A stretch of 64,000 nt of DNA from positions 82,725 through 146,724 of the forward strand of contig CAZAYP010000002.1 of NCBI GenBank assembly GCA_964489425.1, written 5' to 3'. The stretch is from an uncultured Verrucomicrobiota bacterium (GTDB lineage Bacteria > Verrucomicrobiota > Kiritimatiellia > RZYC01 > CAZAYP01). The notes under the pieces are model-generated. The model did no database searches. It was not told the origin of the DNA and worked only from the letters and a program-made list of their open reading frames with translations. Position 1 is the stretch's first letter. Every line of letters starts with the position of its first letter. A program made the position numbers and the translations under genes. Shown piece after piece: positions 6,540 to 49,417 of this stretch.

Positions 6540-6615
6540 CCAGATCCTGCCCTGCGTCTCCGCGGGAAGATATTCCGGTCCCGATTCCTGCATGGTGGGC
6601 TGGACTACCGCTGAA
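6540..6615 (+). repeat. Repeat family rep2, left part, interrupted by MITE copy A; the remainder lies at 6823-6850
   Basis: About 90% identical to 25612-25716 (ccagatcc..gatatt..ggtcccgattcctgcatggtgggctggactaccgctgaag.tctgaagccag.tgggg). Confidence 0.7.
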
Positions 6616-6822: not shown

Positions 6823-7165
6823 AGGCTGAAGGTCTGAAGCCAGATGGGGCGAACGGTCCCCGTGAGCCGTCCGGTCTTTCCGGACAATTATTATGAAAAA
6901 CCCTACAACAGGCAGATTTCAATCGGGAACTCAGGAAAGCCGGAACGGAGCCTGCATGTCTTTGAAAACCAGCAGGGATCGGCCGTCTTTTCCAAGATTC
7001 TTGCGTTCCAGATTCGTCAACGCTGCCTTTCATCAAGAACGACTGTTACCCCTTGCCATTGCGGGTGTTGACAGGGGAGATGAAATGACCCTGCGAAAAG
7101 CCGTATCCAGCTTGCACGCACGGTGGCATCGGACGCGCGATGCCCATTTTCCCGTGCTTTATTTA

Positions 7166-7629: not shown

Positions 7630-7728
7630 AGGCGGCGTCGACGGAGCGCCGCTCTCCACCTGAGAATAATGATCGCGCCGATGGAGGGCGCCGCTCCGTC
7701 GGCGCCGATAACGGACCATCATTCTGCA
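7630..7728 (+). repeat. Repeat family rep3, copy 1; a ~100-bp structured element immediately 3' of a stop codon
   Basis: About 93% identical to 25351-25455. Internal complementarity cgacggagcg...cgctccgtcg and agaat(a)atgat...atcattct. Confidence 0.7.
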
Positions 7729-7858
7729 ACTCCCAATAAGCCGTTCTGACAACTGAACCCATGGTGGTTCCTGCTGGTCTTCCTCGATGCGGACAGATCC
7801 ATTCAACATGGATAGCCAGGATGTTCAGGATGCTTCGACTGCATTAGGTTCAACTGCG

Positions 7859-16769: not shown

Positions 16770-16851
16770 ATATTTAACGAAGAGTCCCTGAGGGTGTACT
16801 GATATGCAAAATGGGCACAACAGGCAGACTGGCATCCTGACGGTGGAGAAC

Positions 16852-19800: not shown

Positions 19801-22800
19801 GCCGCACTCTACAACACGTTCAAGCAGACGTTCTACTACGACGCGGCTCGGCCCGGCGGCTACATCCAGTACCCGGCCGCGGACGGCGACGCGGTGGGCG
19901 GCCAGCAGTACGGCGCCGTGGTGCGGTCGGACCATTCCGTGCGCGAAGCGTGGTTCCACATCGATGATGCTGATCCGAGCAACGACGACACGGCCACCGG
20001 CGTGGCCAACGGCAACGGCAACGGGTTCGAGCCATACACGGACGGCAACAACGACGGCGGCTACGACCTCGGCGAAGCCTTTGAGGACCTGAACCAGAAC
20101 GGCTCGTGGGACAGCAACATCGGCCAGTCCTGGGTGCACGCGTACCAGACCACGCCCGGCGACATGGCCACCGACTATCCCAAGGAGTGGCGGTTCACTT
20201 ATAACAACATTCCCGCCGGCGGCAGCAACGCGACCATCGCCGTGCGCCTGCGCGAGTGGTCCAGCGCCGAACGCGCCGTGTTCACCAACTACACCGACAC
20301 CACCGGCCACTTCACCACGCTCACGCGCACGGTCAAGACCTGGGGCCCGGACGTGCGCATGTTCATCGCCTGGCCCCAGCAGGACGGCGACACCGTGGGC
20401 GAAGGCTACGTGATGAAAACCTACTTCACCAAGTCGCTGGCCGACGGCCTGAGCGAGCAGGACCTCATCAACCGGTTCCTCATCAAGATCCAGAGTTCCG
20501 AGTCCGGCCGCACCACCGGCGGCGTGGCCCAGAGCCGCAGCGCGTACTCCATCGACTGGGACGAGGGCGATTACTATGCGCTGCTCTTCACCCTGCCGAA
20601 CCTGTACAACGGCGATCCCAACTGGCTGCATGGCCTCGAAGTCACGCATGAACGGCCCAGCATGGCTGACTTGGTGGCCACGCGCCTGGTCAAGGCGGCC
20701 CAGGCCGAAGAAGCCCCGTATGTCGCCATTATCGAGCCGCCCGAGTACGGCTCGGACGGCAGCCCACACGAGATCATCATCCCGGACGAAGCTGCGCCCA
20801 GCCCGGAAGAGTTGCGGACCACGGTCCGCGTCGAAACCGCCACCAACGTGGCCACGTTGAACATCTCGTTCGGGTCGTGGCCGGCGGACTATTTCCCCGG
20901 CGGCGGCATGAGCTTCGTCAGCAACAGCATTGTCGGCAGCACCAAGTATTGGGACTACGATTGGTCCAACCTCGTAGCCGGCACGTACCGGTTCACCGCC
21001 TGGGTGTTCACGCCGTCGGGCGCTTCCAACTCAGCCTCGCGCAACGCCACGGTCGTGCAGCGCGAGTGGGTCAGCGCCAATACCAATGATTTGGACGACG
21101 ATGATGACGGGTTGCTGGACGATAACGAGACCACCGCCGAGCCCCTGCCAAGCTTGCGTGAAATCAATCCGGAACCCAACCCGGAGAACTGGGACAACGG
21201 CGAAGTCCATATCCATTACGCCTATGGCAAGTCCCTGCCGCAAAGCCCGGACAGCGACGCCGACGGCCTGTCCGACGGCCTCGAGGTCGGCTGGCGCAAC
21301 CCGGCCTCGGCCACCGACACCAACGCCGACACCAACGGCGACGGCTGGCCGAATTTCCGCGCGGACTATGATCCGCCCTTTTACAACACGCTGGACAACG
21401 AGGGCAAGGTGCCGGGCGTCAACAGCCGCAGCCAGGGCGGCGACCGCGCGCTGCAGCTCTACGGCTCGACCACGGATCCCTCCAACCCGGACACGGATTA
21501 CGACGGCCTGCCCGACGGCATCGAGGACGCCAACCGCAACGGCTGGGTGGAGGGCGACGGCGCCGTGATCGATCCCACGTGGGACCCGTGGCTTGCGCGC
21601 TCGTGGCCCAACGACCGCCTGGATGTCGGCGAGACCTGGACGGAAACAGATCCCAACGATTCAGATACGGACAACGACAACTTGAGCGACGGCAACGGCG
21701 AAGACAAGGATTTTGACGGCCGGATCGCCGGCGACGCCAACACCAACCGCGTGTACAACGCAGGCGAAGAGTGGAGCGAGACCGATCCGCTCAATGCCGA
21801 CACGGACGACGACGGCCTGACGGATGGCTGGGAGGTCCAGTATAACTTCGATCCATTGGACGACGGCAGCAACAGCCTGCGCACCGCCGTGGCCGCGGAC
21901 GGCAACGTGACGAACGGTGCGGCCGGCGACCCGGACGCCGACACGTTCGACAACGCCACCGAGCTCGCCAACGGCACCAACCCGCGCTATGCCGATACCG
22001 GCGTGCCGCCGCCCGAAGGTACCATCACCATCGGCCGCGGGCCGGCGCTCGGCATCACCGGCGGCGTCACCAACTACCAGGAATTCACCGACTGGACCGC
22101 CGCGGATCTGATCGCGCTGGACGATTACAACAACGGCGGCAGCCAGGCCGTGGACATTTACCGCGCCTGGGACGGGTTTGACAGTTCGCGCGACCTGGTC
22201 GCGTTTTATGCCCACGACGGCGGCGATCTGGCCCTGGGCGGCGATGGCATGTTCTATTTCCGCGTCGATTTGCAGGATCTCCAGGCCCTGGCCGAAGACG
22301 CCTACGTGGATATTTACGTGATCGTGGACATGAACAGCCCGACCATCGGCGAGTACAGCCTGCCCGATTCCGCCGACCTGGTCACGGAAATGAAGTGGGA
22401 GGCCGCCGTGGCCGTTTACGGCGGCAACAACGGCCGCGTGTACGTGGATACCGAGCGCGGCAACAACTCGCTGTCGGCCGTCGATGACCTGGCGCCCTTC
22501 GGGGTGGTGGCACGCAACCAGGCCACAGCCAGCGGCTTTGGCCAGGCCTATTTCAACTCCGATCTCGACGCCGTGGAGTTCTCCATCAGCCGCCAGGCGC
22601 TGCGTGACGCCGGCTGGAACGGGCTCAACCCGAACCAGCTCAACTACCAGGTCTACACCACCAAGGACGGCACCCAGAACAGCCCCTTGGGCCCGGGCGA
22701 CATCGGCGGCCGCAACGACCTGCGCGACTCGATCACCGACGACTGGGTCTGCTCCGATTACTGGCGCGACCAGAACAACATCATCGCCAACGGCCGCCTC

Positions 22801-25329
22801 TACGGCCACCTCGGCCGGTCCGCGGACAACGATTTCGGCAAGAGCGCCAAGATCGCCATGGTGATGCACGGCAACCAGGCCATCCAACCCGGCAGCGAGA
22901 TCCAGGACTTGGTAAACAACGGCGTGGGCGCCGGCTATCACCGCGCGCTGGACGTGCACGAGGTGTTTAGCCAGCCGATGAACCTGCACATCACGCCCAC
23001 CCTGGCCGCGGCCCTGGAGTGGGCCCGGGTGGACACGAATGCCAGCGCCACCTGGCGCGACGGTCCCACGTTCAACGACCGGCTCCGCACGCTGGTGGCC
23101 ACCAACGTGGTGTGGCTGCTCGGCAGCACGTTTTCGGATCACATCCTGCCGTACTTCACGTCCGCATTCAACGCGGACAACGCCAGCCTGGCCGGCGAGT
23201 TTCTGCACACGATTTACGGCGCCCAGTTCACCGGCAGCACCCCGTTCTGGCCCGCGGAGCGCGTGCTCGATGACGATGTGTTCGCCAAGATCCAGGCCAT
23301 GGGATTCGGCTTTACCATCATGGATGCCGACACCCACATGTGGGAATGGTTCGGCCGCTACGCCGCGCTCGGCGACGACGGGTACCGCGTCAACCGCGTG
23401 CATGGCGTGTACTGTTTTGTGATCAACAACGCCGCGTGTGAATACCGGTTCGCCAACACCGACAGCGGGCTGGGCACGGCCCTGCGCGAGCTGCTCAACC
23501 GGCGCGCCCGCAGCAGCACCCAGGACCAGTTGGTCACCATCCTGAGCAATTGGGAGGATTTCGGCAGCAGCTCCCAGGCCGACGCTTATGACCGCAACCT
23601 GCGCTGGCTGGCCAACCACCCCTGGACCCAGCTGGTCAGCCTCGAGGAAGTCGCGGCCGGCGAAGTGGACACCGACGGCGACGGCAACGGCAACTACTTC
23701 GGCAACATCGATCGTGGCTCACCCACGCTCTCCAAGCAGGGCCACAACTGGGTCAACCATTCCACCCAGGGCGATTACGACAGCTGGTATTGCGGGTCCG
23801 GGCAGGAGGAAAGCCTGCAGAACAAGCAGTTCGATATCCGGCCGGGTACGCAAGTGCCCACGGCGTACGGCATGTTGTACTTCACCGGCATCATCAGCCA
23901 GGCCTGGGAGCGCGTCAACGCCATCGCCAACTCCAACGTCGCGCAACTGGCGCGCGCCGTGCTGCACGCCTCGCTGTTCGAGACCGCGTTCCACGACGAG
24001 GACAACAACAACCTGAGCCGCTTCAGCACCGGCGACTACATCTACCCCGACTCCTCCTCCAACAGCCTTGCCGCGTTCGCTGCCAACGCGCAATCCCAGA
24101 CCCGCCTGGCCGCCATGTACGCCCGCGTGGACACCTGGGCCGCGTCGGCTGCGGGCGTGACCACGCCGCAGGCTTCCGCGGAGGACGTGGACCTGGACGG
24201 CGAGAGCGAGTACCTGCTCTACAACAACCGCGTGTGCGCCGTGTTCGAGCGTATCGGCGGCCGCTTGGTCGCGGCCTGGTACCGCGACGTGGTGGACAGC
24301 CAGGTGTACCAAGTGGTGGGCAACGCCGCCGGCTACAGCGGCGCGGCCACGGAAGAGGAGGGGACCTACAACGTCGAGACCAACCGCGACGTGGTGGCCT
24401 ACCGCACCTCCTGCCTCAAGGACTGGTGGCTGGCGCCCGCTGGCACCGCCCAGTACGTCAACGATCTGTACGCCGCGGCCGGCGTGGCCGGCGGCTGGCG
24501 GTTCACCTCCAGCGACGGCAAGATTCAGAAAACCATCACGCTGGCCACCAACACGCCCAAGCTCGAAGTGGCCTACGTGCTGTCCGGCGTCGGCGCCACC
24601 AGCCTGTATGTCCGCAACGGGCTGTCGCCGAACCTGTACAATCTGCTGCTGCGCGGCCAGCGCACCCTGGCCCCGGCGCGCGCCAGCGGCGGCGTGGTGA
24701 GCGTGGCCGAGACCAACTACGCGACCACGGTGACCGCGTGGCTCGGGTATGGCGATGCGGGCCACGCCGCGGGCTACATCGATTCCGCGGTGGACGACAA
24801 CCCCGGCTCGGGCGTCAGCTTTTACACGCTCAACATGCGCAACCAGGCCCAGACCCACCAGGTCGAGCTGGTGGGCACCAACACGTTTACCTTTGCGCTG
24901 GGGTTCAGCGCCGGCGCGTCCGACTGGGACAGCGACGGCATGCCGAACACGTACTCCGACCGCTACGACCTGGAGGCTCATCCGCAGGGCGGCGCTGACC
25001 AGGACGCCGACGGGGATCGCATTTCCAACAAGGACGAGTACGTGGCCGGCACCAGCCCGCTGGACGGCACCGATTATCTCTACGTGAACGATCCGACGCT
25101 CCAGGGCAGCAATATCCGCCTGCTGTTCCCTACGGAACTGAACCGGCGGTACTTCGTCTGGTATAAAAACAACCTGTTGCGCGATGCCACATGGAGCTTG
25201 GCCACGCCGGCCGGCCTCAGCGGCACTGGCGCCGGTTACCAGTGGACGGATGATGGCGCGCATACCGCGCCCCCGCCCGGCGTGGCCACCAGCCGCTATT
25301 ACCGGATCGAAGTGGCTCTGCCGGACTAG
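16852..25329 (+). CDS. Giant (2825 aa) secreted multi-enzyme: GH13_5-like alpha-amylase, putative CBM module, TSP3-type calcium-binding repeats, GH57-like domain, C-terminal FN3-like module
   Basis: GGAGAA then ATG at 16852; signal MAMTRRTIVFLAVVAAVISAAGW. N-terminus LQYFNTSYAEITDKMPELAEAGYSSIWLPPPTK...GYDLWDPLDIG...RTRYGTEAELM...IYFDNIMNHRA...GLRLDAVKHV is characteristic of liquefying alpha-amylases. Dx(D/N)xDGxxD repeats at about 21090-21990. Segment 22840-23500 carries GH57-like motifs (HGNQAIQP, FWPAERVL, IMDADTHMWEWFG). Confidence 0.9.
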   Translation: MAMTRRTIVFLAVVAAVISAAGWFPQEARAEAMLQYFNTSYAEITDKMPELAEAGYSSIWLPPPTKGSGGLSVGYDLWDPLDIGGKDQRGSIRTRYGTEAELMILLETAHRFGIRIYFDNIMNHRAFDIPGYNEGTDIYIYPGMVPEDFHLRVTEEGYYRKWDNCRDWNSTWQVQNLGLADLIDIAHETPNDNFGANEGDDHPKISFIRHPNNPEYYLDTDLPISVGYGIYSWSEYTFANKEPYDDVGYTNASAVFVSAAVGNGKFDWEDLNANGQHDVGETGESFDDTGLDPSRWTSADRGYGDGKYNMGNPGYEDVGAYLIRAGRWLMDYTRADGLRLDAVKHVPAYFFGDYGSDTSGNGYCGGAQVQFNVSRGFSDWDNHRDTVFNTEGNRDDAMMFGEHLGEPPGYGDYLGRGMRLVDNPLRNEFNSRLGSPWNGLSGYDQSGYGGFSAACGVMHAQSHDNDYASRRELQHAFYFTRDGLGLLYTDGNHHAETLGESGGAFPRHANTAFLGQWGDLRIPNLLYIHEQFGRGYQKGVWSDGDYVAYQRMDWRQGGSTDGDKVVMLIMINDDYSGGQARDIRGSISFGHTPFVDDAYLYNYSTYGGGFYTYASALNTVIVPAGGYFVFSWRTPEESALWSGFGGDPVTFYENGRQAGTMSYTRTDGPDGDANYNPYGVADTNAADYSYTYTIPRVTSSTNLRIVARADGSAANVLLRLDGGVDLDGDGRDNPPALSSDVYLGFEQPSFVKRIYKEKFAAADSARNRIGSAGAETYHMTIGSTGYRTNYSNGANDWDNSETAMWIWHNPQSTTDLGPNHFTPAPDSAAGTSITVWVKSGNQFNMNNVALYYTTNGTTWPEGAGGEGYEQTRVVPFAWDHNQYESTTNDWWKATIPALPAGTVLRYKIGCYKQQGEGTWSVTWPADAGAVATKLNRMGVWEVTNINAAALTVYPHNDYGNKYTGLREGFHLLTARAFLERDARAALYNTFKQTFYYDAARPGGYIQYPAADGDAVGGQQYGAVVRSDHSVREAWFHIDDADPSNDDTATGVANGNGNGFEPYTDGNNDGGYDLGEAFEDLNQNGSWDSNIGQSWVHAYQTTPGDMATDYPKEWRFTYNNIPAGGSNATIAVRLREWSSAERAVFTNYTDTTGHFTTLTRTVKTWGPDVRMFIAWPQQDGDTVGEGYVMKTYFTKSLADGLSEQDLINRFLIKIQSSESGRTTGGVAQSRSAYSIDWDEGDYYALLFTLPNLYNGDPNWLHGLEVTHERPSMADLVATRLVKAAQAEEAPYVAIIEPPEYGSDGSPHEIIIPDEAAPSPEELRTTVRVETATNVATLNISFGSWPADYFPGGGMSFVSNSIVGSTKYWDYDWSNLVAGTYRFTAWVFTPSGASNSASRNATVVQREWVSANTNDLDDDDDGLLDDNETTAEPLPSLREINPEPNPENWDNGEVHIHYAYGKSLPQSPDSDADGLSDGLEVGWRNPASATDTNADTNGDGWPNFRADYDPPFYNTLDNEGKVPGVNSRSQGGDRALQLYGSTTDPSNPDTDYDGLPDGIEDANRNGWVEGDGAVIDPTWDPWLARSWPNDRLDVGETWTETDPNDSDTDNDNLSDGNGEDKDFDGRIAGDANTNRVYNAGEEWSETDPLNADTDDDGLTDGWEVQYNFDPLDDGSNSLRTAVAADGNVTNGAAGDPDADTFDNATELANGTNPRYADTGVPPPEGTITIGRGPALGITGGVTNYQEFTDWTAADLIALDDYNNGGSQAVDIYRAWDGFDSSRDLVAFYAHDGGDLALGGDGMFYFRVDLQDLQALAEDAYVDIYVIVDMNSPTIGEYSLPDSADLVTEMKWEAAVAVYGGNNGRVYVDTERGNNSLSAVDDLAPFGVVARNQATASGFGQAYFNSDLDAVEFSISRQALRDAGWNGLNPNQLNYQVYTTKDGTQNSPLGPGDIGGRNDLRDSITDDWVCSDYWRDQNNIIANGRLYGHLGRSADNDFGKSAKIAMVMHGNQAIQPGSEIQDLVNNGVGAGYHRALDVHEVFSQPMNLHITPTLAAALEWARVDTNASATWRDGPTFNDRLRTLVATNVVWLLGSTFSDHILPYFTSAFNADNASLAGEFLHTIYGAQFTGSTPFWPAERVLDDDVFAKIQAMGFGFTIMDADTHMWEWFGRYAALGDDGYRVNRVHGVYCFVINNAACEYRFANTDSGLGTALRELLNRRARSSTQDQLVTILSNWEDFGSSSQADAYDRNLRWLANHPWTQLVSLEEVAAGEVDTDGDGNGNYFGNIDRGSPTLSKQGHNWVNHSTQGDYDSWYCGSGQEESLQNKQFDIRPGTQVPTAYGMLYFTGIISQAWERVNAIANSNVAQLARAVLHASLFETAFHDEDNNNLSRFSTGDYIYPDSSSNSLAAFAANAQSQTRLAAMYARVDTWAASAAGVTTPQASAEDVDLDGESEYLLYNNRVCAVFERIGGRLVAAWYRDVVDSQVYQVVGNAAGYSGAATEEEGTYNVETNRDVVAYRTSCLKDWWLAPAGTAQYVNDLYAAAGVAGGWRFTSSDGKIQKTITLATNTPKLEVAYVLSGVGATSLYVRNGLSPNLYNLLLRGQRTLAPARASGGVVSVAETNYATTVTAWLGYGDAGHAAGYIDSAVDDNPGSGVSFYTLNMRNQAQTHQVELVGTNTFTFALGFSAGASDWDSDGMPNTYSDRYDLEAHPQGGADQDADGDRISNKDEYVAGTSPLDGTDYLYVNDPTLQGSNIRLLFPTELNRRYFVWYKNNLLRDATWSLATPAGLSGTGAGYQWTDDGAHTAPPPGVATSRYYRIEVALPD

Positions 25330-25350: not shown

Positions 25351-25455
25351 AGACCCTGACGGCGGCGACGGAGCGCCGTCCTCCACCTGAGAATCATGAT
25401 CGCGCCGATGGAGGGCGCCGCTTCGTCGGCGCCGATAACGGACAATCATTCTGAA
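25351..25455 (+). repeat. Repeat family rep3, copy 2, immediately 3' of the stop at 25329
   Basis: About 93% identical to 7630-7728. Confidence 0.7.
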
Positions 25456-25466
25456 AAACCAAACCT

Positions 25467-25572
25467 AGAAAGAGCAGATAAACTACGAAACACGCGAATT
25501 ACACGAATTTCTGCGGCAACGAGTTTCGCGTTATTCGCGTGTTTCGTAGTTAATTCAAATGCTGAATTTAGG
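25467..25572 (+). mobile_element. MITE-like element, copy B; an internally deleted (~106 bp) derivative
   Basis: Retains both 27-bp subterminal inverted repeats and both termini (agaaagagcagat..., ...caaatgctgaatttagg) but lacks the ~105-bp central segment present in copies A and C. Confidence 0.7.
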
Positions 25573-25611
25573 ATAAATATTCTCGCGCAAAGACGCCAAG
25601 CCGCCAAGAAG

Positions 25612-25716
25612 CCAGATCCGGCTTTGCGTCGCCGTGTCTTGGCGAGATATTATTCTGGTCCCGATTCCTGCATGGTGGGCTGGACTACCGCTGAAGATCT
25701 GAAGCCAGGTGGGGTG
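25612..25716 (+). repeat. Repeat family rep2, intact copy; it overlaps and encodes the last ~19 codons and the TAA stop of the histidine-kinase gene
   Basis: Aligns with the split copy at 6540-6615 and 6823-6850. On the minus strand it reads ...PGFRSSAVVQPTMQESGPE*. Confidence 0.7.
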
Positions 25717-28700
25717 GCGGCGGCCTTGGCAGCGCCTGCTTCCGGCAGAACGCGTTGCAGCACGGCGATCAGTTGATCCGGTTTAATCGGTTTCGCGATG
25801 TAGTCGTCCATGCCCGCCGCCAGAAACCGCTCGCGGTCGCCCGGCATGACATGTGCGGTCATGGCCACTATCGGCAGGCGGAGAACGGATGAAGGATGAG
25901 GGATGAAGGATGAATCCTCCGCCTTCCGATCTCTGACTTCATCCGTCATCCTTCCGCCTTCATCCTTTTCTTTGGCGCGAATGCGCCGCGTCGCTTCCAG
26001 GCCATCCATGACCGGCATTTGGATGTCCATGAAGACGAGATCGTAGTCGTTCTTTTCCAGCGCGGCGAGCGCCTGCGCGCCATGTTCCGCCACCTCCACA
26101 CGCGCGCCCAGCTTGCGGAGCAGAAACCGGGCCGCAAGCTGATTGGTCGCGTCGTCCTCGACCAGTAAAATCCGGGCGTTGAATTGCAGGTCAGCGCTGG
26201 TTCTCGCGCCCTGCGGCTGGCGCTCGATGTCTGTTGGCGCGCAAACGGTCAGCGGGAGGGTCAGCACGAACGTCGAGCCCTGGCCCAACGCGCTTTGCGC
26301 CGTGATGTCGCCGCCCATGAGCCGGGCCAGATCCCGCGCAATGGCCAGCCCCAACCCCGTGCCGCCAAAACGCCGGATATTGGAATCGTCCACCTGCATG
26401 AAGGGGGAAAACAGTGCGTCGAGCTTCTCCGCCGGGATGCCGATGCCCGTATCAACCACCGAAAAGCGCAGCCAGATTGTTGGTTTTTCGTTCTTCGTTC
26501 TTTGTTCTACGTTTATCCTTAATCCGTTATCCTTCATCCTTTCAACGCGCACCGCCACCGTGACGCGCCCTTGTTCCGTGAACTTGATCGCGTTGCCAAT
26601 CAGATTGAACAGAATCTGGCGCAGGTGTTCACCGTCGCCACGCACGGCTTGGGGCGCATCCTCCGCTACGTCGCACCCGAATTCCAGGCGCTTGTCGCGG
26701 GCCTGAAGTTCCATGACGGCGGCGATATCCCCCAGCAAGGTTCGCACGTTGAAATCGGATTCGCGAATCTCCATTCTTCCGGCTTCGATCCGGGAAAGGT
26801 CCAGAATCTCATTGATCACATGGAGCAGCGCCTGGCCGCTTTTTTCGATGGTCTGCACAAATAGCCGCTGTTCGTCGTCAAGCTGCGTAGCGCCCAGCAG
26901 GTGGGCAAACCCAAGCACCCCGTTCATGGGCGTGCGGATCTCATGGCTCATGTTGGCCAGAAAACGGCTCTTCGCCACCGTCGCCGCCTCCGCCGCCTCC
27001 TTGGCCTCGCGCAGCGCATCCTCTGCCCGTTTGCGCTCGGTGATGTCCTGGAGGGACCCCGACAGGCGGACGACGCGTCCGTCTTTCTTCTCGGCTTGTC
27101 CGTGGGCCAGGCACGTCCGGGTGGCGCCGTCCATGCAGAGGGCGTGCAGCTCGAGCTCGTAGGGGGTGCCTTCGCGGAGGGCGGCTGCCACGGCTTCGTT
27201 CAGCTGGCGGAAATCCTCCGGCGTATAGAGGGAGGAATGCTCCGCGAAGGAGGGGGCGCCCAGGTCCGGGGCGCGCCGGAAGATGCGGAAGAGTTCGTCC
27301 GACCAGATGACGGTGTCGCTGGCCACCTCCCATTCCCAACTGCCGACGTGGGCGAGGGCTTCTGTTTGCTCGAATATGGCCTGCTTGCGTTGCAGATCTT
27401 CCTCGACCCGCTTGCGCTCGGTGATGTCAGCGAAGACACAGGCGAACTGGTTGGGCGTGGGCCGGAAGGCCGACACCATGAAGATTTTTCCCAGTGCGCC
27501 GGAGTGGTTCTCGAAGGAGGCTGGTTCACCGGTCAGGGCCACCTTCCCGTAGGTTTCGATCCAGTGGCGCTCGGTGCCCGGCAGGACTTCCAAGACGGTC
27601 TTGCCGACAACATCCTGCGCCTTCAAGCCAGTCATGCGCTCGAAGGCCGGGTTGACGGCCAGAAAACGATAGTCCACCGGTTTTCCCGCCGCATCACAAA
27701 CGATCTCATGCAGGGCGAAGCCATCCAGCATCTCGCGGAACAGCGTCTGGTATTGCTGCTCGGCCCGGTGGTAGGCCGTCATGTCAACCGCCGAAGCTGC
27801 CACATACTGGGGCGCGCCCCGTTCATCCTTGAGGAGTACCCCGTTCATCAGCATGGGAAATTCCGTCCCGTCCCGATGGAGATGCCAGACCTCCGTGGGC
27901 TTGAAATGACCCTCCCGCAGCATGGTGGCAATAAGATGTTCCACCAGATCCATTCGTTCCGGGCTGTGAAACACGGAAAGAGGACGGCCCATCAGTTCCT
28001 CGGGAGTGTATCCGTGGATACTGGCAAAGAACCGGTTTACATACAGCAAATGGCCTTGAAGATCGGCAATCGCCTTGCCATAAACCGCATGGTCTGAAAT
28101 CGTCTTGAATCGCCTGTTCTCCTCCTCGGCACGTTTTCGCTCTGTGATGTCGCGCAGGAAACAGAAGAACAAGCCCAACTTGAACGTCGTGCTGACTTCA
28201 ACCTCGATGATCTTGCCATCCTTGCGGCGGTGCTTGGTCTCAAAGCGGTCTATGCCATCCTTGCGATTCGCTTCAATATGCTTGGCCGTCTCATCCGGGG
28301 TTTCTGCGGCGTCCAGATCGGAAATGCACATGGCGAGCAGTTCCTCCCTGCTGTAGCCGCTCATCCGGCAAGCAGCCTCGTTGACATCCAGAAACCGCCC
28401 CTGAACGTCCATCAGCCAGAAGCCATCCATGGCTGCGTGAAGGATGTTTCGGTGCCGCCACTCGCTTTCCCGCAACGCCTCATCGGAGCGTTTTTGCTCC
28501 GTGATGTCGCGCACCGTTCCGGCCATCCGGATCGGTTGTCCGGCATCGTCGAAGAAGGTCTCCGCGACTTCATGAACCATCCGTTCTGATCCATCTGGCC
28601 AAACGATGCGATGTTCCACATTAAAGGGTTTTCGTTCACACCATGCAGCCTGCGTCACTGTATTCATCATGGATCGGTCATCGGGATGAACACATTCGAA

Positions 28701-29300
28701 GAAGGCTTCCATCGTCGGATCGAAAGTGTCTTTCTGAACGCCAAATATACGGAATGTCTCATCCGACCAAATAAGAGCATGGGTCCGTACATCCAATTCC
28801 CAGCCCCCGACATGCGCGATGCGCTGCGCTTCCTCAAGCCTTGACTCGCTCTCCCGCAGCGCCTCGTTGTTTTTGCGGATGTGTTCCGCTTGGAGGAGGT
28901 TTTCTATCGAGATCGAAAGCATCAGCAGTAAGTTGCTGAGCAGTTCGTTGTGGGCGGGGGAAAGCGGAGGGGATGTGTGGGGCAGGATGAGTACGCCCAG
29001 GGTGGCGTTCCCGGCGGCCAGGGGGATCACGCGAAAGTGGTCGTCACGGGTTAAGAGGCACGCCTCTTGCGGAGGAACGGCTTCTTTCCGAATTGTGCAC
29101 GATTCACATGCGCTGTGTCTGCCCGCCGGGCCCCCGCATTCTTTCAGACACAAGATCGCGTCATGCAATCCCATAACGGTTTTAATCGCATGTTCCGCAA
29201 AATCGGCCTTCTGCTGAATGGATGGCAACGCGCTCAGAAAGCTGGCAGCGGCCAGGAGTTGGGTGGCGATTTTTTCGGCGGGTTGCGGCTCCTGGCTCAT
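25650..29300 (-). CDS. Hybrid sensor histidine kinase (multi-PAS, HisKA, HATPase_c, receiver domain)
   Basis: Repeated PAS-like blocks separated by ...DITERKRAEE... linkers. H-box FLANMSHEIRTPMNGVLGF; G-boxes DTGIGIP and GTGLGLAIARDL; receiver ARILLVEDDATNQ...DLVFMDIQMPVMDG...PIVAMTAH...YIAKPI. Start ATG overlaps the upstream MEDS gene stop (ATGA). Confidence 0.9.
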   Translation of the reverse strand: MSQEPQPAEKIATQLLAAASFLSALPSIQQKADFAEHAIKTVMGLHDAILCLKECGGPAGRHSACESCTIRKEAVPPQEACLLTRDDHFRVIPLAAGNATLGVLILPHTSPPLSPAHNELLSNLLLMLSISIENLLQAEHIRKNNEALRESESRLEEAQRIAHVGGWELDVRTHALIWSDETFRIFGVQKDTFDPTMEAFFECVHPDDRSMMNTVTQAAWCERKPFNVEHRIVWPDGSERMVHEVAETFFDDAGQPIRMAGTVRDITEQKRSDEALRESEWRHRNILHAAMDGFWLMDVQGRFLDVNEAACRMSGYSREELLAMCISDLDAAETPDETAKHIEANRKDGIDRFETKHRRKDGKIIEVEVSTTFKLGLFFCFLRDITERKRAEEENRRFKTISDHAVYGKAIADLQGHLLYVNRFFASIHGYTPEELMGRPLSVFHSPERMDLVEHLIATMLREGHFKPTEVWHLHRDGTEFPMLMNGVLLKDERGAPQYVAASAVDMTAYHRAEQQYQTLFREMLDGFALHEIVCDAAGKPVDYRFLAVNPAFERMTGLKAQDVVGKTVLEVLPGTERHWIETYGKVALTGEPASFENHSGALGKIFMVSAFRPTPNQFACVFADITERKRVEEDLQRKQAIFEQTEALAHVGSWEWEVASDTVIWSDELFRIFRRAPDLGAPSFAEHSSLYTPEDFRQLNEAVAAALREGTPYELELHALCMDGATRTCLAHGQAEKKDGRVVRLSGSLQDITERKRAEDALREAKEAAEAATVAKSRFLANMSHEIRTPMNGVLGFAHLLGATQLDDEQRLFVQTIEKSGQALLHVINEILDLSRIEAGRMEIRESDFNVRTLLGDIAAVMELQARDKRLEFGCDVAEDAPQAVRGDGEHLRQILFNLIGNAIKFTEQGRVTVAVRVERMKDNGLRINVEQRTKNEKPTIWLRFSVVDTGIGIPAEKLDALFSPFMQVDDSNIRRFGGTGLGLAIARDLARLMGGDITAQSALGQGSTFVLTLPLTVCAPTDIERQPQGARTSADLQFNARILLVEDDATNQLAARFLLRKLGARVEVAEHGAQALAALEKNDYDLVFMDIQMPVMDGLEATRRIRAKEKDEGGRMTDEVRDRKAEDSSFIPHPSSVLRLPIVAMTAHVMPGDRERFLAAGMDDYIAKPIKPDQLIAVLQRVLPEAGAAKAAATPPGFRSSAVVQPTMQESGPE
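25884..25970 (+). repeat. In-frame heptamer tract 1 inside the kinase receiver domain: an imperfect palindrome built of GGATGA(A/G) units
   Basis: Plus strand reads ggatgaa ggatgag ggatgaa ggatgaa tcctccgccttccgatctctga cttcatcc gtcatcc ttccgcc ttcatcc. It encodes a 29-aa insertion (DEGGRMTDEVRDRKAEDSSFIPHPSSVLR) in the alpha3-beta4 loop. Confidence 0.6.
26483..26545 (-). repeat. In-frame heptamer tract 2 inside the kinase HATPase domain: nine degenerate NGANNAA heptamers, low GC
   Basis: Minus strand reads ggatgaa ggataac ggattaa ggataaa cgtagaa caaagaa cgaagaa cgaaaaa ccaacaa (63 bp = 21 codons). It encodes the extra MKDNGLRINVEQRTKNEKP between the VTVAVRV and IWLRFSVVDTGIG strands. First 28 bp are 23/28 identical to tract 1. 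Confidence 0.6.
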
Positions 29301-29953
29301 GGCATGGGGCTCCGAACGGCGCTGGGGATGCGGCGCGCAAACTCCTGGAGGAACTCCTGCGGGGGGAGGTAGTAGGGATTATGAACGATCTGGCCGCGCA
29401 CGATCATCATCGGATGCACCCGCAGGGCATCCATGATCAAGGCGCCGCTGAAGCGATTGGCATCATACTGGCAAATGGCGCTGAGCGGATGCGTTTGCAA
29501 CACGATATTGACCCAGGCCTCATATTCCATGAGTCGTTCGGAGCCGGGAATGCCCTTCAAGGCCCAGCTCATCTCGCCACTGACGCGGGCCTGGCGATAA
29601 CCCTGCGCCACCGCGCCCGTGTAGAACGCCTTGAGCCGTTCCAGCATGTCCTCCACCACGAAAGCGCCGCCCGGACAATACGCGCTCAGGGTATCTTGTA
29701 CGGCAAGATTCCTGGCGGACGTTTCGGCGGCGACGTCAATCTGCATGTCATTCAGCCATGCGACCACCTCGTCTTTGGTCATCACATCCGCAAAATAGGC
29801 CACCTGCTCGCCGCTGAGCAAGCCGGCACCGAGGAACTTTCCGATGATGCGCCGCCGTTCGGCGTCATCTTGAAAGATCATGCACAGGTGGGCTCCAGCC
29901 GCGAATTTTCTCTCCGTAAAGCCCAGCGATATTTCCTGATGATTATCACACAT
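29297..29953 (-). CDS. MEDS-domain (DcmR-like sensory) protein, co-transcribed with the hybrid kinase
   Basis: Product MCDNHQEISLGFTERKF...VSGEMSW...QYDANRFSGALIMDALRVHPMMIVRGQIVHNPYY fits the MEDS pattern. AAGGAAA precedes the ATG at 29953; an alternative ATG at 29995 adds 14 aa. Stop overlaps the kinase start. Confidence 0.55.
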   Translation of the reverse strand: MCDNHQEISLGFTERKFAAGAHLCMIFQDDAERRRIIGKFLGAGLLSGEQVAYFADVMTKDEVVAWLNDMQIDVAAETSARNLAVQDTLSAYCPGGAFVVEDMLERLKAFYTGAVAQGYRQARVSGEMSWALKGIPGSERLMEYEAWVNIVLQTHPLSAICQYDANRFSGALIMDALRVHPMMIVRGQIVHNPYYLPPQEFLQEFARRIPSAVRSPMP

Positions 29954-30160
29954 CGCATTTTCCTTGGGACCACGTTCCATCCCATATTGATACACGCATC
30001 ACCCATCCGTAGCGCGTTCCTGGACGACCGGCGGCATGATGGCACCGCCGGTTGTTGTTGTCGAGTTCGCGCACGAGAAAAACCACCCCTCGGCCTGCGG
30101 CCAGGTCAGCTGCCGAGGTGCGAGGTCGGATGAACCAACTTGTTGGCTTCCGTCTTCTTC

Positions 30161-30284
30161 CTCGTTGTCGTTGTCGTTGTCGTGATCGTCGTCGTGATCG
30201 ATCGTCTTCGCCATCCGGATTTTCCGGTCTCGATTACGATTACGACAACCGTCTGGCTATCGCCTCACTGACAACGACAACGAA
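30161..30284 (+). repeat. (GTTGTC)n hexamer tract plus inverted repeat in the divergent intergenic region between the MEDS/kinase operon and the LamG gene
   Basis: tcgttgtcgttgtcgttgtcg (30161-30181) pairs with tgacaacgacaacgaac (30268-30284). It also contains gatcgtcgtcgtgatcgatcg and cgattacgattacgac. Confidence 0.55.
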
Positions 30285-30389
30285 CCCCATCGATCAGGTA
30301 AATATTATGGGCTTTGAGGTTCCCTTGGACAATTCTGCTTGTTTTGGCCATATCTCCTGACATGCTGGGCACTTAAAGGAGGTGCACGC

Positions 30390-31268: not shown

Positions 31269-31415
31269 AAGAAAGAAAATGAAAAGGGGTCCGTACGCAA
31301 GGCCTCAGTGAAACGGGGTGATCAGGCGCCGGGCTTGGGATGGGCGCCCATCATCAGTCGTCGTTTCCGAACCGGCTACAGGGGAAGCCTACGATGCAGC
31401 ACCTTGTTCATTTTT

Positions 31416-31442
31416 CCTCACGGAGCCACGGAGGTCACGGAG
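31416..31442 (+). repeat. Outer 27-bp inverted repeat (left arm) flanking MITE copy C; its partner is at 31791-31817
   Basis: cctcacggagccacggaggtcacggag against the reverse complement of ccccgtgtctccgtgcctccgtgagag (22 of 26 positions match). Confidence 0.5.
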
Positions 31443-31487
31443 AACAGCGCCGCTCAGGTCATGGATGGCGCGAGTCATGCTTCATCC

Positions 31488-31695
31488 AAGAAAGAGCAGA
31501 TGAACTACGAAACACGCGAATTACGCGAATGCATCCCGTTGACTCTCTGCTAAATATGTACGGTAATGGCCCGAATTCTTCCTGCACCCAACAGGTGAAC
31601 GATGTTATTCTCAGCTTGTTCGCCCGTTCCTCTTTCTGCGGCAACGAGTTTCGCGTTATTCGCGTGTTTCGTAGTTAATTCAAATGCTGAATTTA
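31488..31695 (+). mobile_element. MITE-like element, copy C (full length, 208 bp)
   Basis: Same element as 6616-6822 (reverse complement) and 25467-25572 (deleted derivative). About 44% GC. Confidence 0.75.
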
Positions 31696-31935
31696 GGTTC
31701 ATGGATTCCAGCAGCAAATCAAAAGGCAAGTGGGGTTCCTTTCCTCGCATGACGCAGAACCACGATCGCTCCGATTCTTTTTGCGTTCATCCCCGTGTCT
31801 CCGTGCCTCCGTGAGAGTCTCCCCGCCTGGCTGAGGCCTTACTTCTGCCGTGGAAATTTCTTTGACAACGGCGCGTGCGTTGGGCACAATCGCGCATCAA
31901 TCGAATCATAGCAATCATGTAACAGGAGCAAGGTA

Positions 31936-39582: not shown

Positions 39583-39593
39583 AGGGAGCGTAT

Positions 39594-48470: not shown

Positions 48471-48556
48471 AGAAAACGAGGAATGAGGAATGATGAACGA
48501 TGACCATCGGACGATAGGTTTCATAAGCATTGGCAGATTTTCCAGCGAGGCCCAAT

Positions 48557-49417
48557 ATGAAGAATAACCTGGTGGCTGGGGTGATCGCATGTGTTGTGGT
48601 TTCATCATTCATCGTTCAGTATTCATCGTTCTCTTCCCCCCCCATGCCATCCTTCCGCTACTTCGGCATGCTGGTGGATGAATACGGCTGGCCGTGCCGG
48701 GCGGACAGCGACACCGCGCTGGTGCTTTCCGTGCGCACCAACGAGTGCAGCCAGGCGGAGACCGACGAGCAGTTGGGCTACGGCATCAACTACGTCATCG
48801 AGGCGCCCATGGATTATCCCAACGCCAGCGCCTATGCTCCCTATGCGGCGCGGCCGGGCGATCCCGCGAGCCTGGCCGTGTGGGTGGGCGACGTGCAGCA
48901 GCCCCTGATGTCCACATCCGCCCTGCCGGCCATTGGCCAGCCCGGCCAGGCCGTGCGCGTGAATCTCAACCTGGGCACGGATACGGACCACGACGGCCTG
49001 TCCGACGAATGGGAGACCGACCTGATCATCAATAATTCCGGTGGCCTCTTCACCAACATCACCCAGGTGCTGGCCGGCGATGACTTTGACGGCGACGGCG
49101 CGACCAATGGGGATGAGTTTCGTGCCGGCACCGCGCCGGAGTGGGCGGGCGACGTCTTCGCCGTGTACGATTGGATGGCAGTGGAAAGCAACGGACTGGC
49201 GCTTTGTTTTTACACCGTCCAGGGCATGACCTATGAGCTGTTTTCCGTACCCTCCACGTTGGCCAACCGGGAGTTGGCCTGGCAGCGGACTGCGTTTCGC
49301 ACCAGCCCCGGGGGCGGGAACGCCTATACCTTCACGGCCCCCGCCTCGGAGCGCGCGTTCTTCTACGCGTATCCCACCAACACGGTCAAGCTGTTCCGGC
49401 TGCAGATCATGAAGTGA
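48557..49417 (+). CDS. Secreted protein with TSP3-type calcium-binding repeats and a C-terminal FN3-like module
   Basis: Signal MKNNLVAGVIACVVVSSFIV; repeats DTDHDGLSDEWETD and DDFDGDGATNGDE; C-terminus ...VKLFRLQIMK. Confidence 0.75.
   Translation: MKNNLVAGVIACVVVSSFIVQYSSFSSPPMPSFRYFGMLVDEYGWPCRADSDTALVLSVRTNECSQAETDEQLGYGINYVIEAPMDYPNASAYAPYAARPGDPASLAVWVGDVQQPLMSTSALPAIGQPGQAVRVNLNLGTDTDHDGLSDEWETDLIINNSGGLFTNITQVLAGDDFDGDGATNGDEFRAGTAPEWAGDVFAVYDWMAVESNGLALCFYTVQGMTYELFSVPSTLANRELAWQRTAFRTSPGGGNAYTFTAPASERAFFYAYPTNTVKLFRLQIMK

What the first reader, a model, noticed from the sequence alone, without database searches (positions are those of the whole stretch)
25884..26545. In-frame GGATGAA-type heptamer tracts embedded in the hybrid histidine-kinase gene
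Two low-GC patches inside an otherwise ~65% GC coding sequence consist of tandem 7-bp units. Tract 1 (25884-25970) is an imperfect palindrome, 4 x GGATGA(A/G) followed by 4 inverted units. Tract 2 (26483-26545) is 9 degenerate units. The first 28 bp of the two tracts are 23/28 identical, so they share an origin. Both keep the reading frame (87 and 63 bp) and add 29 and 21 residues exactly at surface loops, in the receiver alpha3-beta4 loop and a HATPase loop. This looks like either palindromic-element insertion into a coding sequence (analogous to Rickettsia RPEs) or a heptanucleotide simple-sequence tract. Because 7 is not a multiple of 3, gain or loss of one unit would frame-shift the kinase, so the tracts could act as a phase-variation switch.
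Basis: partly seen in the sequence, partly recalled or inferred. Interest (0 to 1): 0.72.

Follow-up and report, generated by a model that had tools for sequence, protein, structure and literature searches.

The report
Translatable heptamer hairpin inside kinase gene
Two stretches of 7-base repeats inside a bacterial sensor-kinase gene are copies of a repeat hairpin found in many bacterial phyla: it normally sits at gene ends, but one variant can be read through by the ribosome and so persists as extra surface loops in proteins, and it does not look like an on/off switch.

Summary
The hybrid histidine kinase gene (25650-29300, minus strand) contains the only two period-7 arrays in the 64-kb window.

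- **Tract 1 (25884-25970):** a hairpin, (GGATGAN)x4, 23 nt, (NTCATCC)x4. It is open in one of six frames.
- **Tract 2 (26483-26545):** a degenerate one-armed array.
- **Position in the protein:** the tracts encode low-confidence loops, in the receiver alpha3-beta4 loop and at the tip of a beta-hairpin in the ATPase domain.

Tract 1 belongs to a family seen in many phyla. Its gene-strand arm, GGATGAA-GGCGGAA-GGATGA, occurs exactly in at least 120 metagenome contigs, 27 viral contigs and 8 loci from the genome-collection scan.

GGATGAA arrays carry TGA in all three frames. Half of 334 arms abut the end of an ORF of at least 150 codons, against 7% of control positions. The GGCGGAA unit leaves one open frame, which encodes KDEGGRMKDE...SSFILHPSS. 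That peptide is also found in frame within ValRS, UvrA, PFOR and other genes.

The phase-variation idea is not: the units are impure, related copies lie in presumably essential genes, and a homologue carries decayed inserts at the same two loops.

How the family spreads and what it does are unknown. I rate it a new variant of a known kind, of moderate to high interest.

The parts
25650..29300 (-). Hybrid sensor histidine kinase gene, 1216 aa: N-terminal module, PAS repeats, HisKA, HATPase_c, receiver. This is the host of both tracts.
   Evidence: ORF list and translation. Precomputed Pfam domains of the identical database protein P0001. PDB matches to kinase and receiver domains.
25884..25970 (-). 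Tract 1, an 87-nt heptamer-armed hairpin. It is read in frame as KEKDEGGRMTDEVRDRKAEDSSFIPHPSSV and forms the insert in the receiver alpha3-beta4 loop.
   Evidence: I3. Only 1 of 6 frames is open. RNA fold of -38 to -43 kcal/mol. 28 residues stand against 2 in PDB 7c1j. Coil with pLDDT below 50.
25887..25914 (+). Plus-strand arm GGATGAA GGATGAG GGATGAA GGATGAA. On the mRNA it is the 3' pyrimidine arm, which encodes SSFIPHPSS.
   Evidence: TRF gives 4.0 copies at 90%, and a perfect 14-nt duplication. Unit parsing.
25915..25937 (.). 23-nt centre of the hairpin. It is itself made of decayed units (CTCCGCC TTCCGAT CTCTGAC). Bases 25917-25930 are 13/14 complementary to the coding flank 25870-25883.
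   Evidence: (I7).
25938..25965 (+). Second arm TTCATCC GTCATCC TTCCGCC TTCATCC. On the gene strand this is GGATGAA GGCGGAA GGATGAC GGATGAA, which encodes KDEGGRMTDE.
   Evidence: Its gene-strand 20-mer GGATGAAGGCGGAAGGATGA recurs exactly in other genomes.
25952..25958 (-). Variant unit GGCGGAA, written TTCCGCC on the plus strand. It replaces the one unit whose TGA would be in the kinase's reading frame, and so leaves the single open frame.
   Evidence: Six-frame translation. In the sample of 26 hairpins, every element with an open frame reads DEGGR or GGRM through this unit, and 16 elements are closed in all six frames.
26483..26545 (-). Tract 2, a 63-nt one-armed degenerate array. On the gene strand it reads GGATGAA GGATAAC GGATTAA GGATAAA, then CGTAGAA CAAAGAA CGAAGAA CGAAAAA. 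It encodes RMKDNGLRINVEQRTKNEKPT at the tip of a beta-hairpin in the ATPase domain.
   Evidence: Lag-7 autocorrelation 0.70 and no fold. 1 of 3 gene-strand frames is open. 15-residue gap against PDB 7z8n. Coil with low pLDDT.
26520..26522 (-). TTA codon (TAA on the plus strand), at the position where a canonical GGATGAA unit would place TGA in the kinase's frame.
   Evidence: Sequence and frame analysis: RMKDNGLRIN here against the canonical RMKDEG*RMK.
48474..48634 (+). Related intergenic hairpin in the same genome. GAGGAAT GAGGAAT GATGAAC GATGA starts 4 nt after the stop codon of the 3011-aa ORF. The inverted arm TCATCAT TCATCGT TCAGTAT TCATCGT lies just before the next gene.
   Evidence: It folds at -57.6 kcal/mol with the arms paired. 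No T-run terminator was found.

Best explanation
**What it is.** Tract 1 is a copy of a widely distributed repeat hairpin. Each arm is about four GGATGAN heptamers, and the centre is variable. Tract 2 is a decayed one-armed array of the same unit type.

**The family's usual place.** The family normally lies at the 3' ends of genes. There the purine-rich arm, which carries TGA in all three frames because 7 is not a multiple of 3, often supplies the stop codon.

**How it can sit inside a gene.** A recurrent variant has one unit changed to GGCGGAA. This leaves exactly one of six frames open, and that frame encodes KDEGGRMKDE - loop - SSFILHPSS. Only copies in that frame, at sites where a floppy 15-30-residue loop is harmless, survive inside genes. 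In this kinase those sites are the receiver alpha3-beta4 loop and the tip of a beta-hairpin in the ATPase domain.

**Shown here:**
- the anatomy of both tracts;
- the single open frame;
- the loop positions in the protein;
- the family, its bias towards gene ends, and its in-frame copies in unrelated genes.

**Inferred:**
- the DNA arrived or arose as a repeat element and was then filtered by selection on the protein, rather than being selected for what it encodes;
- arrays change unit number by replication slippage;
- the two arms keep each other similar by pairing or conversion;
- the kinase remains functional.

The machinery that spreads or maintains the family was not identified.
For: **Anatomy and statistics in the window:**

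**Protein position:**
- Most homologues lack both segments.
- PDB 7c1j aligns on either side of a 28-residue insert. The solved receiver 4euk also has a long loop at this position.
- PDB 7z8n shows a 15-residue gap.
- The AlphaFold model gives coil with pLDDT below 50 at both inserts, between the expected secondary-structure elements.

**Family:**
- GGATGANx3 occurs in at least 120 genome loci across many phyla. About 17 would be expected by chance for 18 fixed bases in 596 Gb.
- 49 of 141 arrays have at least 2 exact TCATCC within 200 nt downstream, and none upstream.
- 26 clean hairpins have mostly 4 units per arm.
- The window's 20-mer GGATGAAGGCGGAAGGATGA occurs exactly in 8 loci of the genome scan, 27 viral contigs and at least 120 metagenome contigs.
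- Among 92 such elements the modal arm is 4 units. Loops are 2-220 nt and unrelated in sequence.

**Gene-end habitat:** 51% of 334 arms have an ORF of at least 150 codons ending within -40 to +30 nt of the arm start, against 7% of control positions. The array's own TGA is often the stop codon. The related hairpin in the window starts 4 nt after a stop codon.

**Read-through variant:**
- 16 of 26 hairpins are closed in all six frames.
- All 10 with an open frame read DEGGR or GGRM through a GGCGGAA unit.
- In-frame hairpins encoding both arms lie in an SDR, TsaD, a kinase-domain protein, PFOR, ValRS and UvrA. Single arms or arrays of the same units lie in frame in an RNR intein, PriA, MurG, CarA, glycosyltransferases, a HemN-like protein and a phage terminase.

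**Persistence and slippage:** orthologous copies stay at the same gene-end position while the flanking genes are only about 70-80% identical. The arms are conserved (30/31 nt in one pair), the loops are unalignable, and unit counts differ by 1-2. The two arms covary at the variable position: 0.78 Watson-Crick pairs against 0.67 in shuffles, with 0 of 2000 shuffles reaching the observed value.
Against: - Only one 64-kb window of the source genome is available, so dispersal within this genome is shown by one related, non-identical intergenic hairpin only.
- No empty-site ortholog of the kinase exists in the databases searched, so insertion is inferred rather than seen.
- The unrelated loops and the absence of target-site duplications argue against ordinary transposition. 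The perfect 14-nt duplication and the unit drift in tract 2 fit growth in place.
- The one homologue with the same N-terminal module has inserts in the same two loops. That could mean an old, possibly useful protein feature.
- Many taxon labels come from metagenome bins. Isolate genomes showing the hairpin or arrays include Chthoniobacter flavus and three Herpetosiphon species.
- The sets of related loci were ascertained by exact arm sequence. This inflates the apparent conservation of that arm.
Confidence: 0.78

Rival explanations
1. Phase-variation (contingency) switch. Slippage by one 7-nt unit shifts the frame and turns the kinase or its receiver on and off.
For: - The unit length is not a multiple of 3, and the two other gene-strand frames contain TGA, so a slip would truncate the protein at once.
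- Orthologous intergenic copies in other genomes differ by 1-2 units, so these arrays do slip over evolutionary time.
Against: - At most two adjacent units are identical, and tract 2 is heavily degenerate.
- The tracts lie in the last quarter of a cytoplasmic signalling gene.
- The same element type is in frame in presumably indispensable genes, where on/off switching should be harmful.
- A homologue keeps decayed inserts at the same loops.
- Both inserts are in frame, and the gene is intact in the only assembly available.
Confidence: 0.06
2. Purely local origin. The arrays grew in place inside pre-existing loop codons by replication slippage and template switching, with no imported element. 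The resemblance to other genomes is convergence of a favoured heptamer.
For: - There is a perfect 14-nt duplication in the tract 1 arm.
- Tract 2 is a one-armed array whose unit drifts from CGAAGAA to GGATGAA.
- Period 7 is the commonest repeat period in the related loci, with many different units.
- Loops are unrelated between copies and there are no target-site duplications.
- The window holds other hairpins whose arms are tandem repeats of other 6-9-nt units.
Against: The same 20-mer, with the same two-base variant unit in the same position, occurs in well over 140 unrelated contigs. A single base change would suffice to remove the stop codon, so repeated independent origin of the double change is unlikely. 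The preference for four units and the conserved arm edges also point to a defined element.
Confidence: 0.15
3. Selected protein feature. The acidic-then-Ser/Pro-rich loops (KDEGGRM...SSFIPHPSS) are kept because they serve the kinase, for example as flexible linkers, docking sites or protease sites.
For: - The same peptide recurs in many proteins.
- The homologue P0008 has inserts at both of the same loops.
- Solved plant kinases carry long natural loops at the same two positions.
Against: - Conservation is at the DNA level and includes copies closed in all six frames and intergenic copies.
- The host proteins are functionally unrelated.
- The loops are predicted to be disordered.
- The P0008 loops have diverged in both sequence and length.
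Confidence: 0.12
4. Internal RNA signal. The tract 1 hairpin acts within the mRNA, as a pause, cleavage or attenuation site that uncouples expression of the kinase core from its receiver. This would reuse the role the family may have at gene ends.
For: - The hairpin is stable, at -38 to -43 kcal/mol.
- The family is strongly tied to gene 3' ends, and its arms are conserved between orthologous intergenic copies.
- The two arms covary.
Against: - There is no T-run terminator signature and no Rfam family match.
- A translating ribosome would unwind the hairpin.
- Tract 2 has no structure.
- No transcript data are available.
Confidence: 0.1

Closest known systems
Rickettsia palindromic elements (RPE; summarised in PMC10969869)
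   Same: Both are palindromic repeats found in frame inside unrelated protein-coding genes. Both encode a conserved peptide, and both are tolerated because they fall at permissive surface sites.
   Different: - RPEs are about 150 bp, belong to ten Rickettsia-specific families and are not built from tandem short units.
- This element is about 80 bp plus a variable loop, is made of heptamers, and is seen in many phyla.
- Its usual place is gene ends, where it carries stop codons in every frame. Only one variant is translatable.
Long heptanucleotide simple-sequence repeats / cyanobacterial STRR (Mrazek 2007 and Mazel 1990, as described in PMC4679880 and PMC4692102)
   Same: Both are tandem 7-nt units over-represented in large genomes of free-living bacteria. 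Both are mostly non-coding and close to gene ends, and neither has a known function.
   Different: The literature found describes direct arrays of other units (CCCCAGT and similar, GGGNATC, TAACTGA). I found no description of the GGATGAA hairpin form, its GGCGGAA variant or its in-frame copies.
TAACTGA repeats of Beggiatoaceae, Cyanobacteria and Bacteroidetes (PMC4679880)
   Same: Both are heptamers with stop codons in all three frames in one orientation. Both have a scattered distribution across phyla. For both, copies inside ORFs occur only in the open orientation and mostly at the periphery of the protein.
   Different: TAACTGA sets are direct repeats, mostly just upstream of start codons, and only one indirect repeat was reported. 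The present family is typically an inverted pair at gene ends, and it has a variant that opens the stop-bearing orientation.
GGGNATC repeats of Xanthomonas and Nostoc (PMC4692102)
   Same: [quoted passage not shown]
   Different: Those repeats are G-quadruplex formers, under-represented in coding regions and not arranged as hairpins.
Phase-variable contingency loci
   Same: Both are short tandem units whose length is not a multiple of three, located inside a gene.
   Different: Contingency tracts are long and pure, sit near the 5' end or promoter of surface or restriction-modification genes, and vary between cells. None of the features I could test is met here.
Tandem repeats in Borg elements that create disordered protein regions (PMC9879509)
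   Same: In both cases DNA repeats add intrinsically disordered segments to proteins at tolerated positions.
   Different: Per that paper's abstract, Borg repeats are direct tandem repeats that form recently and independently within Borg genomes. They are not a conserved inverted element shared across phyla.

Membership tests
Rickettsia palindromic elements (works like; not a member) | Palindromic repeat able to form a hairpin | tested here: met
   31-nt arms that are 84% complementary. Fold of -38 kcal/mol, z = -5.5.
Rickettsia palindromic elements (works like; not a member) | In-frame copies in unrelated protein genes that encode a conserved peptide | tested here: met
   KDEGGRMKDE...SSFILHPSS occurs in frame in an SDR, TsaD, PFOR, ValRS, UvrA and other proteins.
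Rickettsia palindromic elements (works like; not a member) | Insertion at sites compatible with the protein fold | tested here: met
   Alignments to PDB structures and the AlphaFold model place both inserts in loops.
Rickettsia palindromic elements (works like; not a member) | About 150 bp, one of the RPE sequence families, genus Rickettsia | tested here: not met
   The element is 79-87 nt and built of heptamers. The host's RF3 is closest to Phycisphaerae/Planctomycetota at 77-79% identity. I did not run a direct sequence comparison with RPE consensus sequences.
Heptanucleotide long simple-sequence repeats / STRR-type arrays | Head-to-tail 7-nt units, more than chance would give | tested here: met
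   TRF arrays. They are the only two period-7 segments in 64 kb. Lag-7 autocorrelation is 0.62 and 0.70.
Heptanucleotide long simple-sequence repeats / STRR-type arrays | Predominantly non-coding and close to gene ends | tested here: met
   Met for the family: 51% of arms abut the end of an ORF, against 7% of controls. The two kinase tracts are the exceptions that lie inside a gene.
Phase-variable contingency locus | Long, pure tract of identical units | tested here: not met
   At most two adjacent units are identical. The tract 2 arrays are 80-83% matching.
Phase-variable contingency locus | Located in the 5' part or promoter of a surface, restriction-modification or similar gene | tested here: not met
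   The tracts are at codons 921-941 and 1113-1140 of 1216 in a PAS/HisKA/HATPase/receiver kinase.
Phase-variable contingency locus | Unit-number polymorphism within a population | not testable with these tools
   No read data are available. Independent Logan contigs of the same organism end before the tracts.
Miniature inverted-repeat transposable element (MITE) | Terminal inverted repeats | tested here: met
   The arms are inverted repeats.
Miniature inverted-repeat transposable element (MITE) | Target-site duplication | tested here: not met
   By eye, no consistent direct repeat flanks the 26 + 92 elements. The flanks only continue partial units, (G)AA...TT.
Miniature inverted-repeat transposable element (MITE) | Conserved internal sequence and uniform length within a family | tested here: not met
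   Loops are 2-220 nt, with no similarity between contigs apart from near-duplicate contigs.
Miniature inverted-repeat transposable element (MITE) | A parent insertion sequence with matching ends | not tested
   I did not search for a transposase gene linked to the arms.
Intrinsic (Rho-independent) terminator | G+C-rich stem followed by a run of T | tested here: not met
   The scan found no terminator-like site at tract 1, tract 2 or the 48474-48634 hairpin.
Known structured RNA families (Rfam 15) | Match at the family's gathering score | tested here: not met
   No matches at gathering score anywhere in the window. Only weak, generic microRNA-hairpin hits appear at relaxed thresholds.

The most novel reading that the evidence does not exclude
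The GGATGAA hairpin would be an undescribed class of gene-end element, conserved in sequence across many phyla. In this reading:
- an arm of four stop-bearing heptamers is kept by selection at the 3' ends of genes, as a combined three-frame translation stop and RNA or DNA hairpin;
- the element is spread or regenerated by machinery not yet identified;
- a dedicated read-through form (the GGCGGAA unit) lets it colonise coding regions and add a stereotyped disordered peptide to proteins, including housekeeping enzymes and phage proteins.

The kinase tracts would then be two fossils of that process.
Probability: 0.3. Interest if true: 0.85.

Novelty: new variant of a known kind. Interest (0 to 1): 0.64.

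Why it matters
Heptanucleotide repeats have been known as an over-represented and unexplained feature of large bacterial genomes since about 1990-2007. This locus gave a concrete handle on one such family. Its features are:
- a defined hairpin form;
- a strong tie to stop codons and gene ends;
- arms conserved between diverged orthologous sites;
- a specific variant that makes the element translatable.

Each of these can be tested with transcript 3'-end mapping, proteomics and comparative genomics in cultured carriers such as Chthoniobacter flavus and Herpetosiphon.

The family is also a second, much broader example of the Rickettsia phenomenon of repeat DNA persisting inside protein genes as surface loops. 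That matters for annotation, because many copies are called as tiny hypothetical proteins. It also matters for reading odd insertions in conserved enzymes, and for how new disordered loops arise.

For the kinase itself the practical message is that the tracts are tolerated passengers rather than a switch.

Tried and rejected
- **Exact look-ups** of the kinase, RF3, the full-length MEDS ORF and the lectin-like protein found nothing. The MEDS protein with a later start codon gave two Logan contigs, but both end before the tracts, so there are no population data.
- **No close ortholog** of the kinase appeared among 5.8 billion proteins, so no empty-site comparison was possible.
- **P0008 source, retracted.** I first took P0008 to come from a Pleurocapsa bin, because a cluster member and that bin's contig have the same length. 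That was wrong: the DNA carrying P0008 is 54-63% GC and 78% identical to the 5' end of this kinase gene. It is not syntenic with the window.
- **Peptide search** with a consensus of the element returned only tiny hypothetical ORFs. A first attempt was too short.
- **Rfam** gave nothing.
- **Terminator scan** gave nothing at any of the hairpins.
- **Literature** searches for the motif or its peptide gave nothing relevant.
- **Loop comparison** across 92 elements found no shared internal sequence, which argues against a MITE.
- **Covariation** between the arms is significant at the level of the whole element, but it is not specific to pairing register. G-T and A-C pairs are both common, so it does not show which strand, or whether RNA or DNA, is the selected form.
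- **CsrA-binding and ribosome-binding-site ideas.** AAGGAUGA resembles CsrA sites from my own knowledge, and each unit's AGGA lies 5 nt before the next unit's AUG. I considered these ideas but could not test them, so I make no claim.
Full report
**1. The observation**

The gene is a 1216-aa hybrid sensor kinase on the minus strand, 25650-29300. Its database twin carries PAS, HisKA, HATPase_c and receiver domains.

Tandem Repeats Finder reports four period-7 arrays:
- 25887-25914 (GGATGAA, 4.0 copies, 90% matches), which also reads as a perfect 14-nt unit x1.9;
- 25937-25967 (4.4 copies);
- 26483-26513 (4.4 copies);
- 26515-26541 (3.9 copies).

The tract 1 arms 25884-25914 and 25938-25968 are 84% complementary over 31 nt, with 23 nt between them. 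A sliding test for periods 5-11 over the whole window flags period 7 at only two places, and both are in this gene. The motif with up to three mismatches occurs 35 times, against 11.1 +/- 3.1 in shuffles. GC drops at both tracts.

Tract 1 folds at -38 kcal/mol, z = -5.5 against mononucleotide shuffles. A longer piece gives -43 kcal/mol and z = -2.1 against dinucleotide shuffles. Tract 2 has no fold.

**2. Reading frames**

GGATGAA contains TGA. Because 7 is not a multiple of 3, three successive units put TGA in all three frames, while the complementary TTCATCC strand is open in all three.

Tract 1 has a purine arm on each strand, yet exactly one of its six frames is open, and that is the kinase frame. 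The reason is that the one unit whose TGA would be in frame reads GGCGGAA (plus-strand TTCCGCC, 25952-25958).

In tract 2 only one of the three gene-strand frames is open. There the in-frame position reads TTA instead of TGA.

**3. Position in the protein**

In an alignment of 21 homologues most lack both segments.

Receiver domain:
- The best solved receiver, 7c1j, aligns as two blocks on either side of 28 query residues that stand against 2 of its own.
- The solved receiver 4euk has a natural long loop at the same place.

ATPase domain:
- The solved kinase 7z8n shows a 15-residue gap.
- The solved chain 7p8e carries about 75 extra residues at this position.

An AlphaFold model of the last 456 residues (mean pLDDT 77.7) gives coil with pLDDT below 50 at both inserts:
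- residues 164-180, between strands 152-163 and 181-190;
- residues 356-383, between helix 340-355 (alpha3) and strand 384-388 (beta4).

The net insertions are about 26-28 and about 15 residues.

**4. The same kind of thing elsewhere**

About 17 would be expected by chance. The hits come from Acidobacteriota, Planctomycetota, Verrucomicrobiota (including Chthoniobacter flavus Ellin428), Chloroflexota (including three Herpetosiphon species), Cyanobacteria, Armatimonadota, Bacteroidota and others.

Of 141 arrays, 49 have at least two exact TCATCC within 200 nt downstream and none has them upstream. So the arrangement is always purine arm, loop, pyrimidine arm, on both strands.

Twenty-six clean hairpins show mostly four units per arm and loops of 13-116 nt.

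About 1 or fewer would be expected by chance.

Among 92 elements ascertained by that 20-mer, the modal arm is four units. Loops range from 2 to 220 nt (median 27.5) and share no sequence between contigs, apart from near-duplicate contigs.

**5. The family's usual place**

Of 334 arms with at least three units, 51% have an ORF of at least 150 codons whose stop codon lies within -40 to +30 nt of the arm start on the same strand. The figure for random control positions in the same loci is 7%. The stop is often the array's own TGA: unit 1 in 47 cases, unit 3 in 25 cases and unit 2 in 8 cases.

In the window, a related hairpin at 48474-48634 (units GAGGAAT and GATGAAC) starts 4 nt after the stop codon of the 3011-aa ORF and folds at -57.6 kcal/mol.

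None of these hairpins has a T-run terminator signature, and none matches an Rfam family.

**6. In-frame copies in other genes**

Sixteen of the 26 clean hairpins are closed in all six frames. The ten with an open frame all read DEGGR or GGRM through a GGCGGAA unit.

Pfam confirms real host genes.

Hairpins with both arms read in frame:
- a short-chain dehydrogenase, TsaD and a protein with a kinase domain;
- pyruvate:ferredoxin oxidoreductase, ValRS (about 31 extra residues within the anticodon-binding domain) and UvrA.

A single arm or array of the same units, in frame:
- a class II ribonucleotide reductase within its intein, PriA, MurG and CarA (in the inter-domain linker);
- glycosyltransferases, a GH116 hydrolase, an ABC permease and an exosortase;
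- a HemN-like enzyme and a phage terminase.

The encoded peptide is stereotyped: KDEGGRMKDE, a short loop, then a rotation of SSFILHP. The window has KEKDEGGRMTDEVRDRKAEDSSFIPHPSSV. Several of these host genes are presumably indispensable, which argues against an on/off switching role for the family.

**7. Behaviour over time**

Several pairs of loci are orthologous.
- In one pair the element lies in the spacer between the same two genes. One arm is 30/31 identical, while the loop and the rest of the spacer cannot be aligned, and the whole stretch with its flanking genes averages 79% identity.
- In two other pairs the element sits at the same gene end. The unit count differs by one or two, and the second unit is GGCGGAA in one genome and GGATGAA or GGATGAG in the other.

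The two arms covary at the variable seventh position: 0.78 Watson-Crick pairs against 0.67 +/- 0.016 in shuffles. The effect is not specific to pairing register, and there is no clear strand bias.

So the arms are maintained, or keep each other similar, while loops drift and unit numbers slip.

**8. Relatives of this kinase**

No close ortholog exists in the protein database.

P0008 is the only homologue that shares the distinctive N-terminal 150 residues, with 78% nucleotide identity. It is not syntenic with the window. It has inserts in the same two loops, with weak period-7 signal (0.47 and 0.46) and remnants of GGATGA/CATCC pairing. This could be shared ancestry or recurrent colonisation of the same permissive loops.

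In Desulfonatronum, two congeneric kinases differ by a 16-residue indel exactly in the receiver alpha3-beta4 loop. The longer allele is a strong period-7 array, with lag-7 autocorrelation 0.65.

**9. Interpretation**

Tract 1 is best explained as a read-through copy of a gene-end heptamer hairpin, retained in a permissive receiver loop. Tract 2 is a decayed one-armed array of the same unit type in a permissive loop of the ATPase domain.

The comparison with Rickettsia palindromic elements (PMC10969869) holds for how the element behaves, but it is not a member of those families.

It belongs to the broader, poorly understood class of heptanucleotide repeats (PMC4679880, PMC4692102). I found no description of this hairpin, its variant unit or its peptide.

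Phase variation is unlikely, for the reasons given in sections 1, 6 and 8. It remains untested at the read level.

The spreading mechanism and the function at gene ends are unknown. Local slippage clearly contributes (the 14-nt duplication, the unit drift, and unit-count differences between orthologs). On its own, though, slippage does not explain the identical variant arm in so many unrelated genomes.

**10. Source organism**

RF3 (49483-51093) is 77-79% identical to proteins labelled Phycisphaerae/Planctomycetota. The same organism, or a very close strain, is present in the Logan assemblies of SRR12261224 and SRR12261227.

Noticed in passing
window 6612-6831, 31480-31701, 25464-25572: A MITE-like dispersed element of about 220 bp with terminal inverted repeats CTACGAAACACGCGAAT(T/A)ACGCGAA. 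Two full copies are 93% identical and in opposite orientation. The copy just downstream of the kinase gene is a short derivative in which the two ends are joined.
   Followed up: partly
window 25579-25695 and 6508-6615: A 117-nt repeat (78% identity) covers the last 15 or so codons and the stop codon of the kinase gene (...SSAVVQPTMQESGPE*) and the hairpin just downstream. The kinase's C-terminal tail is therefore encoded by a dispersed repeat.
   Followed up: partly
window 25360-25456 and 7633-7729: A third dispersed repeat: 97 nt, 93% identical, G+C-rich, with an internal inverted repeat. The 320-nt spacer downstream of the kinase gene is thus a mosaic of three repeat families.
   Followed up: no
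window 30150-30290; 31410-31445 with 31790-31815; 25583-25650: Other intergenic hairpins whose arms are tandem repeats of other short units: TCGTTG/CAACGA hexamers, CACGGAGN, and CGCCAAGA. The CACGGAG arms flank a nested copy of the 220-bp element. Hairpins with tandem-repeat arms look like a general habit of this genome.
   Followed up: no
window 25870-25883 and 25917-25930; 25878-25914 and 26512-26548: A 14-nt inverted repeat (13/14) pairs the coding flank of tract 1 (codons LRLPI) with the centre of the hairpin. The plus-strand arm of tract 1 is also 81% complementary over 37 nt to tract 2, which lies 597 nt away. The meaning is unknown (I7 and I1).
   Followed up: no
window 1220-6361, 7859-16648, 16804-25329, 39435-48470, 51705-56033: There are five very large ORFs (1713, 2929, 2841, 3011 and 1442 aa). 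One has extensive internal repeats at 8.9-14.8 kb. The last corresponds to a gene with RHS/YD-repeat domains in a Logan contig of the same organism.
   Followed up: no
window 29297-29953 (minus strand): A MEDS-domain gene overlaps the kinase start codon by 4 nt (ATGA), which suggests a two-gene sensory operon. The start codon used in public gene calls is the ATG at 29953, preceded by AAGGAA, and not the first GTG of the ORF.
   Followed up: partly
L008 6072-6300; L174 and L176; L025 1527-1700: In other genomes GGATGAA arrays directly adjoin arrays of quite different 7-13-nt units (TANCACC, GGCGACACGGGGA, TCNNCCC). They form islands of several short-repeat families.
   Followed up: no
L055 (CarA), L047 (glycosyltransferase), L002 (Desulfonatronum kinase), window tract 1 centre: A second recurring in-frame peptide, (S)EVRSQK, encoded by GAAGTCA-type heptamers, lies next to the TCATCC-type array in several unrelated proteins. 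The centre of tract 1 (DEVRDRK, GAAGTCAGA) resembles it.
   Followed up: no
homologues of window 49483-51093 (RF3): Several close RF3 homologues are 40-75 residues longer than the usual length of about 540 (for example 611, 601 and 594 aa). They may carry insertions of their own.
   Followed up: no
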